Assembly (NCBI RefSeq): GCF_009914755.1
Contig: NC_060931.1
Reading direction: 5' to 3' (one strand)
DNA from: the human T2T-CHM13v2.0 reference genome, Homo sapiens
Length of the DNA stretch: 64,000 nt
In this document: positions 7,745-43,455 of the stretch, in pieces
How positions within the stretch are numbered: position 1 is the first letter of the stretch
Layout of the letters: every line of letters starts with the position of its first letter
Program-made: the position numbers and the translations under genes
Notes under the pieces: model-generated
Databases searched by the model: none
What the model was told of the DNA's origin: nothing
Seen by the model: the letters and a program-made list of their open reading frames with translations, nothing else

Positions 7745-7965
7745 GCTACAGGCTGAAGAGCAGGGATCTGAAGCAGGCTGTCTGGATTTTATTTTTTCCA
7801 ACTTCAGCAATTCATGTAATTTCTCTGCGCTTTAGTTTCTTCATCTGTAAAATGTGGATAACTATGTTCCATTCTTCCTAGAATGTTGTGATTGAGATTA
7901 AAGGAAACGTATATAGTAAGCACAAAACATAGTATGTTGCTCATAGTACTCAATAATTATTAGTA
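7745..7965 (+). mobile_element. MIR
   Basis: Core tttagtttcttcatctgtaaaatg and tail tagtactcaataattattag. Confidence 0.75.
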
Positions 7966-8950: not shown

Positions 8951-11900
8951 CCATTTCAGATGCCCTCCTCCAGTGTCACATTATTGTTTTTCTATAGGAT
9001 TATGTTCTTGTCTATGTTCTATGTCTTATCTTTCATTGGCAGTTTATAATTACACAAAGATATATAACCGCTTTTTCTTTCTCTGTTTCTTCCCCAATCC
9101 ATTCTTCAGCGCTCATCCAAGAAGAGGTATTAGACAAAAGCTCCCCTGCATCTAAGCACAGTGGAGCACCTGAATATATAATTAACCCAGTCAGAAGTTA
9201 TTGTCCAAAGACTTACACTTTTATAGCTTTGACTACCACATTTAATTTCTATGTAGTCTTTTTAAAGTGTTGAAACGTACACGCATTTCTGCTGGGTAAA
9301 CACATAAGCATATCTAGCTCAATCCAGATAATTATTGCATACCTACTCTGTGCAAAGCACCTCAGGAGAAAATGCATAGAACATATATTAAAATGGGCAT
9401 TATACTAGGTACTGTGGTGGGAAGAGGTAACAAAAAGATGATAATAGATAGTAACAGAAGGGATGTAAAGAGGGTAGGAAGGAAAAGAAAGAAGGGAGGG
9501 AAGAAGTAAATAGGCAAACTGTGTTCTTGAAACTATGAATTTGTCAATGAAACAGAAGAGAAGAGGAAGAAAAGAAAAAAAGGAGAAGGGAAGTGAGGCC
9601 AGAGAAGAGAAAAATATCTACCTAAACCCGTCAGAAAGGAGAAGGTAGACTTGTGACTCTCAACCAGAAAGACACGCCTTCCCAGAATCTTTGGATGGCA
9701 TGGGCAATTTAAATAAGCCAATCCTGAGATTCTGACATAACATGAGAGGGCCGCTATCTTGATTCAGTGTCTCTGATGGTGTGGACAGAAGTGGAATTAC
9801 CAAGGGAGACTGGGAAGTACGAGTTGAAGAACTATCAGCAAACATAGGAGAGGACAGCGTCCCAAGTTGAGAGAGGGTTTCCGAAGGAGGCTGTGGCCAA
9901 TATGGAGCATATGTCATAGAGCTCCTAGCACACAGTGAACACTTACTGAATGCTAGTTATTAAAATAATTTACTAATTCTGTATGGAGCATCCAGTAGAG
10001 GAAGACTGAGAACAGCCAAATGGATTTTATAATTTCAGTAAACCAGTGGTGGAAGGCTTATTTCAGAGCTCTGGTAGGAGCAGTTTACAAGAAGGGTCCC
10101 TCCAGTCCGTCTTGTACTTTTCCGTCCCACAGACACTCTTCTGGTTTCTTCTACTTTAAGGTCTCCAATTAGCCTTTCTGATTGGAGCCTCTGTCCCAGT
10201 CCGCACCTATGATTCTCCTTGTTGCCACTCATCTATGACAAACACCTCAGCTATCAACAAGAGAGGGCCATTCTGTGTGTCATGAGACACTGCTTCTTTA
10301 TTTGTAACTGATATTCATCTAAAACTGACCTCCTGCTTTCCTGCTTCTGGACTTTTGCTCCAGCCTATTCTCATCTCCCTTGGTAGAAACCCTGCCTCTA
10401 CCATCAGCCCTATTTAAAAATCAGCCTATTTCATGAAGACTTTGTTGATTAATTCTTTGGGATTAACTTGCCTCAATATTCTTAGCACTTATAATATTAT
10501 ATCTTGTATGGTAGTTGTGAACTTGTAAATCTCCTTGCTAGATTTAGGACTCTTAAAGGAGTGCCCACGTGTTATAATGTCCAGAGGATAATTTTTGTCA
10601 GTGACTTGCTAAGTGAGAGCATTACCTTTTTTTGGGTGCCTCTTTCAGTGCCAAACACAGTGTTTTGCACATAATAGTTACCTGTTAAATAGATGTTGAA
10701 TTGAGTTCATGGCAGCCGTTGATATCTTTCATTAGCCTTTTAGTTCATATTTTGTGCACAGAGTAGTAGTAAATTCTGATGAAAGTTCTGGGTCAGACTA
10801 TCAGAACTGTGAGAGCCCAGGAGAAGCCAATGCACAAGGGTAAGTACCAGAGAGATTTCCTGTTTCTTAGTTATCTATTCTAATCATCACCCACTCCAGG
10901 CACCACCTATTCCTAACTACAATCTCTTGCCTTCTCTCTTTTCTCCTGTTTGCCTTTTCTTTCCTCTGCTGAGATTCATCTTCACAAATCTTTTTATAGG
11001 GAGATGGTTTAATACCTTCCACTTCATGTAGTACTTTATCTTTTCAGAAAAACATTTACATGCATCTCATTGAAACTGATACGCTACTTGAGTCACTTCC
11101 GTCTGCCTGAAGTATATTTCTTTGTTCTAACTTAGTCTCATTTCTGCAAAGGTCAGTAGAATTGTAGTACTAGAATTTAGTATTTCTCCAGTTTTCAATC
11201 TTCCAAAGACAGCTGTATGACAGATATGTTGGTGTAGGTATTAACCCTGCCAGGCAGATCCAGGCTGGTATCTTTGTTTTATAGATGAGAAAATAGGAGC
11301 CCAGAGAGGTCAAGTGATTTGCTCAAGGTAGCTGACTTCGGAACGGCCCATGTAAACTGATAAGGCATCTTTCAAATCCTCAGACCAAAGCCATATGAGT
11401 ATTGCTTGGCTCATGGCTCTATTGGTCAGTGACAGGCACCTTGTCTCCCCACAATTTTATGATACAAAAGCGGTACTATGCAAATCAGGGAAGAACATCC
11501 GGAGACAGAATAATGAAGAATAAGGGAAAAGAAAAATAGATTATGCAAAACAGGAGGTAGACTGCCCTGCATCTGTTTAAGTACATTTTGCCATGACATT
11601 TAGGGACCAAGAATTGGGTGTCTTCTCATGTGTCGTCATCTTACGTGGTATACTGGCCATCTTCTCCAATGTTTATTTCACCTGCATGGTAGAGTAACGC
11701 TGTCCTTGGATCAGAAAATAAGGCACTTGACCCACCATTCATCATAACACGTGCTTTGGATGTATTTTTCTATTTGTGGGGATGCCTTTCTGCTGATCCA
11801 TTTATAACCTCTCATGGAGTTTCCATGGTGACTAGGAGGCATTTTTATAGGACATGTGGTCAGGGGCTGTGGATAAGACTGTGTCTGTAGAACACAGAGA

Positions 11901-13149: not shown

Positions 13150-13382
13150 GTAGTGGGAAGTGTTCTGGATGGAGATTCAGAGACTTGGGGGCCTACTCCC
13201 TGCTTTGACACTTATGAGGTGATTTTGACCAAATCCCTTAAAACCTCTTTTGGGACAGCACATTTGGCATCCTGTGGATCTGTCTCTTGCGTCAATAGTG
13301 TTTGGACAGAACAGATCCAGAGACTCTCTATTAAAATAAAAAATAAATAAACCTCTCTTGGTTTCAGTTTCATCTTTAAAAT
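13150..13382 (+). mobile_element. MIR split by the FTL-derived insertion
   Basis: gtgattttgaccaaatcccttaaaacctct resumes after the insert as acctctcttggtttcagtttcatctttaaaat. Confidence 0.65.
13254..13348 (+). pseudogene. Mini-retrocopy of the ferritin light chain (FTL) mRNA 5' end / iron-responsive element, with A-tail
   Basis: tcctgtggatctgtctcttgcgtcaatagtgtttggacagaacagatccagagactctct closely matches the recalled FTL 5'UTR (TCCCGCGGGTCTGTCTCTTGCTTCAACAGTGTTTGGACGGAACAGATCCGGGGACTCTCT), with several differences explained by CpG decay. A-rich tail at 13330-13348. TSD aaacctcttttgg (13241-53) / aaacctctcttgg (13349-61). TT/AAAA L1 endonuclease site. Confidence 0.88.
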
Positions 13383-13394
13383 TTAACGGTTAAA

Positions 13395-13985
13395 GCAATT
13401 TCACTACTGGATATATTTCCAAAGGAAATGAAATCAGTATGTTGAAGAGATGTCTGCACTCCCATGTTCATTGTAGCACTATTTACAATAGATCAGAAAT
13501 GGAAACAACTAGGTGTCCATCAGTGGATGAATGGATAAAGAAAATGTGGTACAGATACACAACGGAATACTATTCAGCCTTAAAAAAGCAGGAAATCTTG
13601 TCATTTGTAACAGCATGCATGAACCAGAGGGACAATATGTTAAAAGAAATAAGCCAGGTGCAGGTTACCAGAGGCTGGGAGAGGGATGAAGTCCGGGGAG
13701 AAGGGGAGATGTTGTTCAAAGGATACAAAATTCCAGTTAGGCAGGAGAAGTAAGTTCAAGAGATCTACTATAAATCATGGTGACCATAGTTAATAATGAT
13801 GCATTGTATACTTGAAAATTGCTAAGAGGGTAAATTTTTAAGAGCTCTTACCACAAAAAAGTTAACTATAATGTGTACATTCATTATCTTGAATTAGCCA
13901 TTCCGCAATGTATACATATTTCAAAACATGTTGTATATATTTATGATATCATAAATTTTATTTGTCAATTAAAAAATAAATAATA
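13395..13985 (+). mobile_element. L1MA-type 3' end (ORF2 C-terminus remnant plus 3'UTR)
   Basis: ORF 13439..13753 contains CPSVDEWIKKMWY...EYYSALKK (L1 ORF2 C-terminus). L1MA 3'UTR follows and ends tttgtcaattaaaaaataaa. Confidence 0.85.
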
Positions 13986-43214: not shown

Positions 43215-43455
43215 ATAATGTAGTGTAGTCTTGAAGTCAAATGGAATTGCATTCAGATCCCAACTCTATCACTCACTAACTGTGACCACACGTGAATTAC
43301 TTAACCTGTCTAAACCTTAGTTTCCACATCTGCAAAATGGGAATGATGGTCCTGATTACACAGACCTTCTGTGAAGATTTAATGAGAAAACAGATATAAA
43401 ATACTGAGTATAGTGGCTGGCACATGGTAAGTATTGAGTCGATGGCAGCTATTGC
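43215..43455 (+). mobile_element. MIR
   Basis: ttacttaacctgtctaaaccttagtttccacatctgcaaaatgggaatg...ctggcacatggtaagt. Confidence 0.78.

What the first reader, a model, noticed from the sequence alone, without database searches (positions are those of the whole stretch)
13241..13361. An isolated ferritin-L iron-responsive element retroposed on its own into a POU6F2 intron
Seen: a ~75-nt segment, then an A-rich tail (13330-48), flanked by a 13-bp TSD (1 mismatch) at a TT/AAAA site and splitting a MIR. It folds like an IRE, with lower stem TGGATCTGT/ACAGATCCA (13275-83/13311-19), bulged C13290, upper stem GTCAA/TTGGA and loop TAGTGT (13296-301). Established: the segment matches the recalled first ~70 nt of FTL mRNA, and L1 retrocopies normally keep the 3' end and lose the 5' end. 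This one is the reverse, with the cap-proximal IRE kept and the CDS absent. Inference: the template was a short adenylated FTL 5' fragment, such as an early-terminated transcript or an IRP-protected decay intermediate. The insert is sense to the POU6F2 pre-mRNA. The loop C>T (CAGUGU to UAGUGU) and an upper-stem T>G predict weak IRP binding today.
Basis: partly seen in the sequence, partly recalled or inferred. Interest (0 to 1): 0.8.

Follow-up and report, generated by a model that had tools for sequence, protein, structure and literature searches.

The report
Ferritin-L leader-only retrocopy, one of seven
This stretch is an ancient reverse-transcribed copy of only the first 76 bases of the ferritin light chain mRNA, and six more copies elsewhere in the genome end at almost the same base, which suggests the gene once produced a discrete short leader RNA.

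Summary
Window 13254-13329 matches nt 1-72 of the FTL mRNA leader (60 of 71 aligned bases). It carries an Rfam IRE_I match above the curated cut-off (37.2 vs 34 bits). A 19-nt A-rich tail follows (13330-13348). A 13-nt target-site duplication with 1 mismatch flanks it at a TT/AAAA site.

It is not isolated. Whole-genome searches found at least seven leader-only FTL copies, on C7 (this one), C2, C9, C10, C13 and two on C14. All start at the mRNA 5' end. All stop at FTL nt 68-75, 0-7 nt past the base of the extended IRE hairpin. All continue directly into an A tail, and their flanks are unrelated. Eighteen other FTL retrocopies holding the 5' end run past nt 184, and none ends between 76 and 183. 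None of 16 FTH1 retrocopies is leader-only (Fisher p=0.03).

Best reading: LINE-1 repeatedly copied a discrete, 5'-complete, 3'-adenylated FTL leader RNA of about 70-80 nt. The shared 3' end lies inside the published FTL-specific eIF3 site (nt 53-76), so a protein- or hairpin-protected decay or termination product is likely; this step is inferred. The window copy is old, with all 7 CpGs decayed. It carries C39>T, the change listed as disease-causing in FTL, and is probably inert. No description was found in print.

The parts
13241..13253 (.). Target-site duplication, copy 1 (AAACCTCTTTTGG), directly abutting the insert; preceded by TT|A (L1 endonuclease-type TT/AAAA site at 13238-13243)
   Evidence: Sequence read. 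Best direct repeat found by script (13 nt, 1 mismatch, offset -13). Window-wide null 10 of 9043.
13254..13329 (+). Retrocopied FTL mRNA leader, equivalent to FTL nt 1-72 (76 nt here, because older FTL transcripts carried 4 more bases near the 5' end). It is complete at the 5' end and stops at ...GACTCTCT.
   Evidence: Whole-genome DNA searches. BLAST to FTL exon 1 gave 86.7% over nt 13-72, E 7e-13. Global alignment gave 60 of 71 identical.
13280..13314 (+). Decayed iron-responsive element. Bulged C at 13290. Upper stem 13291-95/13302-06 has a G.A mismatch at its base (FTL T34>G). Loop is UAGUGU (FTL C39>T).
   Evidence: Rfam RF00037 IRE_I at 37.2 bits (cut-off 34), E 2.3e-6. The same hit appears in the genome-wide scan. 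Substitutions listed.
13330..13348 (+). A-rich tail (ATTAAAATAAAAAATAAAT), a decayed poly(A). No FTL 3'-UTR sequence lies between body and tail.
   Evidence: The FTL 3' end was read from the gene and is absent here.
13349..13361 (.). Target-site duplication, copy 2 (AAACCTCTCTTGG)
13200..13240 (.). Left half of the older repeat that was split (probably MIR); approximate bounds
   Evidence: The computed empty site aligns colinearly across the junction with the MIR-like copies at 7833 and 43318. This is weak (26 bp, E 0.01). Likeness to the MIR core is otherwise recalled.
13362..13388 (.). Right half of the split repeat (TTTCAGTTTCATCTTTAAAAT...); approximate bounds
   Evidence: same caveat.

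Best explanation
Window 13241-13361 is a LINE-1-mediated (target-primed) retrocopy of only the cap-proximal leader of ferritin light chain mRNA. It inserted tens of millions of years ago into a MIR-like repeat in a POU6F2 intron, in sense orientation. It is one of at least seven independent insertions of the same short RNA.

The template (inferred) was a discrete FTL leader RNA of about 70-80 nt with these features:
- It was complete at the 5' end.
- It consisted of a 9-13 nt lead-in plus the whole extended IRE hairpin.
- It ended 0-7 nt after the base of that hairpin, inside the pyrimidine tract that follows it.
- It carried a non-templated A tail, which let L1 ORF2p prime on it.

The most likely source of that RNA is a 3'-to-5' decay intermediate or a prematurely terminated transcript. 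Its 3' end would be set by the stable hairpin together with FTL-specific proteins bound just 3' of the IRE (IRP plus eIF3), and then adenylated. This is inference, not shown.

Today the window copy is a decayed, probably non-functional IRE-like hairpin within the POU6F2 pre-mRNA.
For: Shown by tools:

1. Retrocopy hallmarks in the window: FTL homology, an A tail, a 13-nt TSD and a TT/AAAA site.

2. Seven leader-only copies (places in the full report), found by five DNA queries and one 30-mer pattern and read.

3. Their 3' ends, in FTL numbering:
- nt 68: C9
- nt 69: C2
- nt 72: window
- about nt 73, plus GGG: C14:63.9M
- about nt 75: three copies ending at the same base (C10, C14:15.7M, C13)
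Each is followed at once by a tail of 5-34 A-rich nt.

4. The length distribution is bimodal. Of 25 FTL retrocopies that hold the IRE region, 7 end at nt 68-75, 18 run past nt 184, and 0 end between 76 and 183.

5. The insertions are independent.
- TSDs: 15/15 (C9); 13 nt with 1 mismatch (window); 12 nt with 1 mismatch (C10); 12 nt with 2 mismatches (C2); 10/10 (C13). They are weak for the two C14 copies.
- The 600-nt flanks of the six copies tested share only Alu-sized, non-colinear matches. Rfam SRP-like hits confirm Alus there.
- CpG decay differs from copy to copy, and no shared derived base is seen.

6. No copy (0 of 7) keeps FTL 3'-UTR sequence or any L1/Alu 3' sequence before its A tail.

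7. The ends lie 0-7 nt 3' of the outermost pairs of the consensus hairpin.

8. FTL specificity: 0 of 16 FTH1 retrocopies holding the IRE are leader-only, against 7 of 25 for FTL. Fisher two-sided p = 0.031.

From print (PMC6721798, passages read): the eIF3 PAR-CLIP site on FTL mRNA spans nt 53-76, the repressive element spans nt 58-90, and no eIF3 site is seen on FTH1.

From established knowledge: L1 ORF2p primes on 3' poly(A), and decay intermediates can be oligoadenylated (PMC4748820, listing abstract only).
Against: - No RNA data were available, so the short RNA itself is inferred only from its DNA fossils.
- Whether the RNA itself was adenylated is not shown. An A tail could also arise if the reverse transcriptase switched from the poly(A) of another RNA onto the fragment.
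- The FTL-versus-FTH1 contrast is modest (p = 0.03, small counts).
- Two of the seven TSDs are weak.
- The eIF3 coincidence is soft. PAR-CLIP boundaries depend on RNase T1 cutting at G, and the site was mapped on the modern human mRNA. The copies derive from older transcripts that differ by two 4-nt indels.
- No orthologous empty sites could be examined, so a longer ancestor at this locus is excluded only by parsimony across seven loci.
- The genome search scores only the best candidates. The C2 copy was found by 1 of 6 DNA queries (one search used C2 itself), so the counts are lower bounds and the long/short ratio is approximate.
- The predicted fold of the window copy is no more stable than shuffles.
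Confidence: 0.7

Rival explanations
1. Template switching. L1 ORF2p began cDNA synthesis on the poly(A) of an L1, Alu or other mRNA. While still inside the A tract it jumped onto the 3' end of a non-adenylated FTL 5' fragment, as proposed for U6/L1 and U3-fragment/L1 chimeras. Alternatively an RNA ligation produced the same product.
For: Chimeric retrocopies whose 5' part is a small RNA or a truncated U3 are documented (bioRxiv 10.1101/2025.02.02.635956, passages read). The result would look the same if the jump always happened within poly(A). This reading also requires a discrete FTL fragment ending at nt 68-75, so it shares most of the evidence above.
Against: None of the 7 copies (0 of 7) has any L1, Alu or mRNA 3' sequence between the FTL part and the A tail, whereas the known chimeras typically keep a piece of the first template. 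There is no A-rich microhomology at the acceptor site.
Confidence: 0.2
2. Ordinary full-length FTL processed pseudogenes that each later lost everything between about nt 72 and the poly(A) tail by genomic deletion.
For: Internal deletions do occur in FTL pseudogenes. The C1:8.05M copy lacks a stretch after nt 184, and the C14:63.9M short copy lacks 15 nt.
Against: Seven unrelated loci would need deletions starting within the same 8 nt and ending inside the A tail, leaving no 3'-UTR base. No copy ends between nt 76 and 183.
Confidence: 0.03
3. The short copies descend from one 'master' short element, a SINE-like source locus carrying the FTL leader, rather than from the FTL gene itself.
For: Six of the 7 short copies share the T-type decay at the CpG near nt 7, against 4 of 10 old long copies. 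All seven carry the older form of the 5' end.
Against: The seventh copy (C2) has the other decay type. The remaining CpGs decayed differently in each copy, so the source still had CG. No other shared derived base is seen. The leader has no known internal promoter, and the 3' ends vary by 8 nt.
Confidence: 0.05

Closest known systems
FTL processed pseudogenes (the long FTL retrocopies, e.g. at C7:46.16M, C1:104.20M, C20:4.05M, CX:30.22M)
   Same: Same parent mRNA and the same 5' start, including an extra G before the first base in several copies. Also an A tail, TSDs and L1-type target sites.
   Different: The long copies run through the 5' UTR into the coding sequence. The window copy and its six relatives stop at nt 68-75 and have no coding or 3'-UTR sequence. 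This reverses the usual 5'-truncated, 3'-complete pattern.
A-tailed retropseudogenes of small RNAs (Y RNAs, U6, 7SK and the like; the class is named in the introduction passages of 10.1101/2025.02.02.635956)
   Same: A short, structured, 5'-complete RNA copied by L1 with an A tail and TSDs, in several independent copies.
   Different: The source here is not a known small-RNA gene. It is the first 70-80 nt of a protein-coding mRNA, and no such RNA species is on record in the papers searched.
Tailless retropseudogenes (Noll et al. 2015, PMC5322556; abstract and passages read)
   Same: RNAs truncated at the 3' end at defined positions that coincide with single-stranded regions next to structure. 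mRNAs are among the sources.
   Different: Those copies lack an A tail by definition. All seven FTL leader copies have one (5-34 nt). Neither FTL nor ferritin occurs in that paper's main text (0 occurrences). Its supplementary tables were not opened.
U3-fragment/L1 and U6/L1 chimeric insertions (10.1101/2025.02.02.635956)
   Same: A 5' fragment of a cellular RNA carried into the genome by L1. The U3 parts are typically about 30% of U3, i.e. 5' fragments.
   Different: Those chimeras keep a 5'-truncated L1 as the 3' part. Here nothing but A's follows the fragment.
Functional ferritin IRE and its hyperferritinaemia-cataract mutants
   Same: Same hairpin architecture by descent, and still above the Rfam cut-off.
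   Different: The loop is UAGUGU, not CAGUGN. The same C39>T change is listed among disease-causing FTL mutations (PMC2994742). The upper stem has lost one pair. The hairpin sits deep in an intron rather than near a cap.

Membership tests
L1-mediated retrocopy (target-primed reverse transcription product) | Sequence derived from a cellular RNA (here FTL mRNA) | tested here: met
   60 of 71 aligned bases identical to FTL nt 1-72. Reciprocal genome searches link it to FTL and its pseudogenes.
L1-mediated retrocopy (target-primed reverse transcription product) | 3' A-rich tail directly after the copied RNA | tested here: met
   13330-13348, 19 nt.
L1-mediated retrocopy (target-primed reverse transcription product) | Flanking target-site duplication of about 7-20 bp at a TT/AAAA-like site | tested here: met
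   13 nt with 1 mismatch, abutting both ends; TT|AAAA at 13238-13243. Null 10 of 9043.
Canonical processed pseudogene | Keeps the mRNA 3' end (3' UTR up to the poly(A) site); truncation, if any, is at the 5' end | tested here: not met
   No sequence past FTL nt 72. The FTL 3' end read is absent. The 5' end is complete.
Canonical processed pseudogene | Lacks the parent gene's introns | not testable with these tools
   The fragment lies wholly inside FTL exon 1, so no exon junction is covered.
Iron-responsive element (Rfam RF00037 IRE_I) | Covariance-model score at or above the curated gathering score | tested here: met
   37.2 bits vs 34. FTL itself scores 57.1.
Iron-responsive element (Rfam RF00037 IRE_I) | Apical loop CAGUGN (definition quoted in PMC8196845) | tested here: not met
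   The loop is UAGUGU at 13296-13301.
Iron-responsive element (Rfam RF00037 IRE_I) | Five-pair upper stem above an unpaired C on the 5' strand | tested here: inconclusive
   The bulged C13290 is present. The upper stem has 4 standard pairs plus a G.A mismatch (T34>G).
Iron-responsive element (Rfam RF00037 IRE_I) | Binds IRP1/IRP2 | not testable with these tools
   Needs a gel-shift or competition assay.
Tailless retropseudogene | No A tail between the copied RNA and the 3' TSD | tested here: not met
   A 19-nt A-rich tail here. All 7 family members have tails.
L1 chimeric insertion (U6/L1 type) | A second RNA's 3' part (L1, Alu, mRNA) joined 3' of the small-RNA part within one TSD pair | tested here: not met
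   Only A-rich sequence lies between body and TSD in 7 of 7 copies. The L1 piece starting near 13390 lies outside the TSD.

The most novel reading that the evidence does not exclude
The FTL gene makes, or made in the mammalian germ line, a discrete, capped, A-tailed leader RNA of about 70-80 nt. It would consist of exactly the IRP-binding hairpin plus the eIF3-repressive element, with its 3' end set by that bound protein complex. The seven genomic copies would be its fossil record. If it is still produced, such an RNA could titrate IRP and eIF3 away from full-length ferritin mRNAs. That would be a by-product or regulator of iron-dependent translational control not described so far.
Probability: 0.3. 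Interest if true: 0.8.

Novelty: new variant of a known kind. Interest (0 to 1): 0.62.

Why it matters
Retrocopies record which RNAs were present, and accessible to LINE-1, in ancestral germ cells. Seven independent copies that all begin at the FTL cap site and all end within 8 nt of each other are hard to explain unless a defined short FTL leader RNA existed. No such RNA was found in the literature searched.

The shared end falls at the 3' edge of the region where IRP and eIF3 sit on FTL mRNA, and the sister gene FTH1 shows no such copies. This turns a genomic oddity into a concrete, cheap experiment: look for capped, A-tailed FTL RNAs ending at +68 to +76, and ask whether they depend on iron status, on the eIF3 element, on the exosome, or on premature termination.

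It also adds a class, mRNA-leader-only with an A tail, to the catalogue of L1 passengers. It further shows that some IRE_I hits in genome scans are fossils of this kind. For POU6F2 itself the insert is most likely neutral.

Tried and rejected
1. A covariance model of the leader (R1) could not be run on this genome, because the tool does not accept it. DNA and pattern queries were used instead, so more diverged copies may be missed.

2. A pattern spanning the leader/A-tail junction found only 3 copies, all already known, with 1 control hit.

3. BLAST of a computed empty site against the rest of the window and all loci gave 3 hits. None spanned the junction, and all lay in the neighbouring L1 piece. 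A MAFFT alignment with two MIR-like copies is only suggestive.

4. Folding energy of the window copy is not distinguishable from shuffles, and the same holds for the 200-nt FTL 5' UTR.

5. IRE-only FTH1 copies were looked for and not found: 13 retrocopies from the Rfam scan and 3 more from a DNA search, all long. Only 82 of about 1.28 million first-look candidates of the Rfam scan were scored.

7. Literature: eight full-text searches and term searches inside two retrotransposition papers returned nothing on leader-only or IRE-only FTL retrocopies, or on a short FTL leader RNA. Subscription journals and supplementary tables were not covered.

8. Rejected as weak: a shared-master origin (one CpG pattern, not significant after multiple sites, and broken by the C2 copy); splicing (no GU near the end point); internal priming (no A-rich stretch after nt 75 in FTL).

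9. The mir-6130-like match at 13375-13471 (23 bits against a cut-off of 117) is treated as noise.

Full report
**What is in the window.**
- A 13-nt direct repeat, AAACCTCTTTTGG at 13241-13253 and AAACCTCTCTTGG at 13349-13361, brackets the insert.
- The body is 76 nt (13254-13329).
- A 19-nt A-rich tail follows (13330-13348).
- The first repeat copy sits at a TT|AAAA site.

At 9043 other places in the window, a 13-mer recurred with at most one mismatch in the equivalent downstream zone only 10 times. Rfam's IRE_I model matches 13280-13314 on the + strand at 37.2 bits, above the curated 34 bits, E 2.3e-6. The predicted folding energy is not unusual (z = -0.77), so the identification rests on the covariance model and on homology.

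**Homology to FTL, by tool.** The window's assembly is held and searchable. The window is C7:39308001-39372000. The FTL gene 5' end lies at C19:51960189. Counting from that base reproduces the clinical numbering (G32, C33, loop 39-44, G51, G52). The window body aligns to FTL nt 1-72 with 60 of 71 aligned bases identical. Five of the 11 mismatches are at CpGs, and T34>G and C39>T are among them. Against a family consensus, all seven CpGs of the window copy have decayed and 4 of 61 other positions differ. That points to an age of tens of millions of years, with a wide margin for so short a sequence. The FTL 3' end (read) is absent: A's follow the leader directly.

**It is not alone.** Five DNA queries taken from other copies, a sixth from the C2 copy itself and a 30-mer pattern with up to 3 mismatches (19 hits, 0 control hits) gave, after reading the loci, seven leader-only copies.

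| Place | Strand | Body | Body ends | Tail | TSD | IRE_I bits |
|---|---|---|---|---|---|---|
| C7:39321254-39321329 (this window) | + | 76 nt | ...GACTCTCT | 19 nt | 13 nt, 1 mismatch | 37.2 |
| C2:61747799-61747871 | + | 73 nt | ...GGGGACTC | 27 nt | 12 nt, 2 mismatches | no hit at E<=1 |
| C9:117917680-117917752 | + | 73 nt | ...GGGGACT | 34 nt | 15 of 15 | 49.8 |
| C10:103257845-103257924 | + | 80 nt | ...GACTCTCTTTC | 9 nt | 12 nt, 1 mismatch | 28.0 |
| C13:59303282-59303361 | + | 80 nt | ...GACTCCCTCTC | A9 | 10 of 10 | 39.2 |
| C14:15712109-15712188 | - | 80 nt | ...GACTCTCTCTC | short A-rich | weak | 42.5 |
| C14:63885780-63885844 | + | 65 nt (15-nt internal deletion) | ...CTCTCTTGGG | A11 | weak | 38.2 |

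Notes to the table:
- The C10 copy sits inside an L1-like sequence; that identification is recalled, not tested.

A junction pattern found no further copies (3 hits, all already known, 1 control hit). The C2 copy surfaced with only one of the queries taken from other copies, so seven is a lower bound.

**Independence.** The 600-nt flanks of the six copies tested share only Alu-sized matches at non-colinear offsets. Rfam SRP-like sub-threshold hits confirm that these are Alus. The window's own flanks match none of the others. CpG sites decayed in different directions in different copies, and no derived base is shared by all short copies. So the copies radiate separately from a CpG-intact source, that is, from the gene.

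All seven carry four bases near the 5' end that modern FTL and its two youngest pseudogenes (C20:4.05M and CX:30.22M, about 96% identical to the gene) lack. This places them in the older cohort of FTL retrocopies. Several copies, short and long, begin with an extra G where the gene has C. This fits cDNA synthesis reaching the cap; that interpretation is recalled knowledge.

**The end point is discrete.** Of 25 FTL retrocopies that contain the IRE region, 7 end at nt 68-75. The other 18 continue past nt 184, most of them through all 301 nt of exon 1. None ends between 76 and 183 (plus). Three copies end at the same base.

An RNAalifold consensus of the gene and five short copies shows an extended hairpin whose outermost pairs close at ...GACU (nt 65-68). 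The ends therefore lie 0-7 nt 3' of the base of the hairpin, inside the pyrimidine tract that follows it.

**FTL-specific.** FTH1 has an equally good cap-proximal IRE (54.1 bits). It has 16 retrocopies that hold that IRE: 13 from the Rfam scan and 3 more from a DNA search. All 16 run on past nt 167 of exon 1. Seven of 25 against 0 of 16 gives Fisher two-sided p = 0.031. This argues against IRP protection as the sole cause.

In Pulos-Holmes et al. (eLife 2019, PMC6721798; passages read):
- The eIF3 PAR-CLIP site on FTL mRNA spans nt 53-76.
- The eIF3-repressive element spans nt 58-90.
- No eIF3 site is seen on FTH1, whose adjacent sequence is not conserved.

The retrocopies thus contain the cap, the IRP site and essentially the whole mapped eIF3 site, and stop there. 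I read this as a candidate cause of the shared 3' end. The match is soft. PAR-CLIP edges depend on where RNase T1 can cut, and the ancient transcripts differed by two small indels.

**Mechanism.**
- Shown: L1-type insertion of a leader-only FTL sequence with an A tail, seven times over.
- Inferred, with good support: the template was a discrete, 5'-complete RNA of about 70-80 nt.
- Inferred, with moderate support: that RNA itself was adenylated, since no copy keeps any piece of another template before its tail (0 of 7).
- Inferred, weakly: its 3' end was made either by 3'-to-5' trimming halted at the hairpin and its bound proteins, followed by oligo- or polyadenylation, or by premature termination just past the hairpin.

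A stable hairpin next to an A tail also resembles the 3' ends of L1 and Alu RNAs. That may favour use by ORF2p (idea from PMC5135761, listing abstract only).

**Rivals.**
- Template switching from another RNA's poly(A): it still needs the same discrete fragment, and no partner sequence is seen.
- Seven parallel deletions: rejected on parsimony.
- A SINE-like master copy: no diagnostic substitutions and no promoter.

**Present-day state.**
- The insert is sense to POU6F2 (hub table). It lies about 40 kb upstream of the nearest exon in the window (53943).
- Its loop is UAGUGU rather than CAGUGN (definition in PMC8196845).
- C39T is listed among the mutations that cause hyperferritinaemia-cataract syndrome (PMC2994742 table).
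- The upper stem has lost a pair.

I expect weak or no IRP binding and no function, but this was not tested.

**Novelty.** Full-text searches and term searches within the tailless-retropseudogene paper and the LINE-1 chimera preprint (0 occurrences of FTL or ferritin in each main text) found no description of these copies or of such an RNA. Supplementary tables and subscription journals were not covered.

The element is a new variant of a known kind. It is an L1 passenger, but one made from the leader of an mRNA, with a fixed 3' end and in seven copies.

**Not possible here.** Dating, and exclusion of longer ancestors, through orthologous sites: no other eukaryote genome is held. Any RNA-level evidence. 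A model-based whole-genome scan.

Noticed in passing
window 13390-13700 and beyond (+ strand): A 5'-truncated LINE-1 3' portion (end of ORF2 onward, recognised from memory) starts about 30 nt after the second TSD. It lies outside the TSD pair, so it is a separate insertion. The weak mir-6130-like Rfam match at 13375-13471 (23 bits vs 117) falls in it and is taken as noise.
   Followed up: partly
window 7833-7855 and 43318-43340 (+): Two matches (3 mismatches each; 0 expected in shuffles) to the recalled MIR core motif. They were used as stand-ins for the pre-insertion repeat.
   Followed up: partly
L009 (C19:51960189 onward) versus older pseudogenes, e.g. L002, L006, L013: Relative to the older retrocopies, the modern FTL leader lacks 4 nt near position +5 and 4 nt in the pyrimidine tract after the IRE hairpin, that is, inside the eIF3-repressive element. 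The C19:3.85M pseudogene (89% identical) has the first 4 nt but not the second, which gives an order for the two losses in the gene lineage.
   Followed up: partly
L019 (C17:16293573) and L022 (C17:22882685): Two long FTL pseudogenes on C17 share the same 5' deletion and flanking sequence. They look like one retrocopy later duplicated with its surroundings, so the count of independent long copies is 17 rather than 18.
   Followed up: no
L017/L033 (C15:90524514-90525119): A long FTL pseudogene whose IRE is split immediately after the loop by an Alu-sized insertion of about 300 bp.
   Followed up: no
L021 (C1:8046051-8046231 and onward): A long FTL pseudogene with an internal deletion after leader nt 184 that joins the 5' UTR to a later part of the coding sequence.
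   Followed up: no
L035 (C13:59303362 onward): An Alu begins within about 25 nt of the A tail of the C13 short copy. It possibly inserted into or beside that tail.
   Followed up: no
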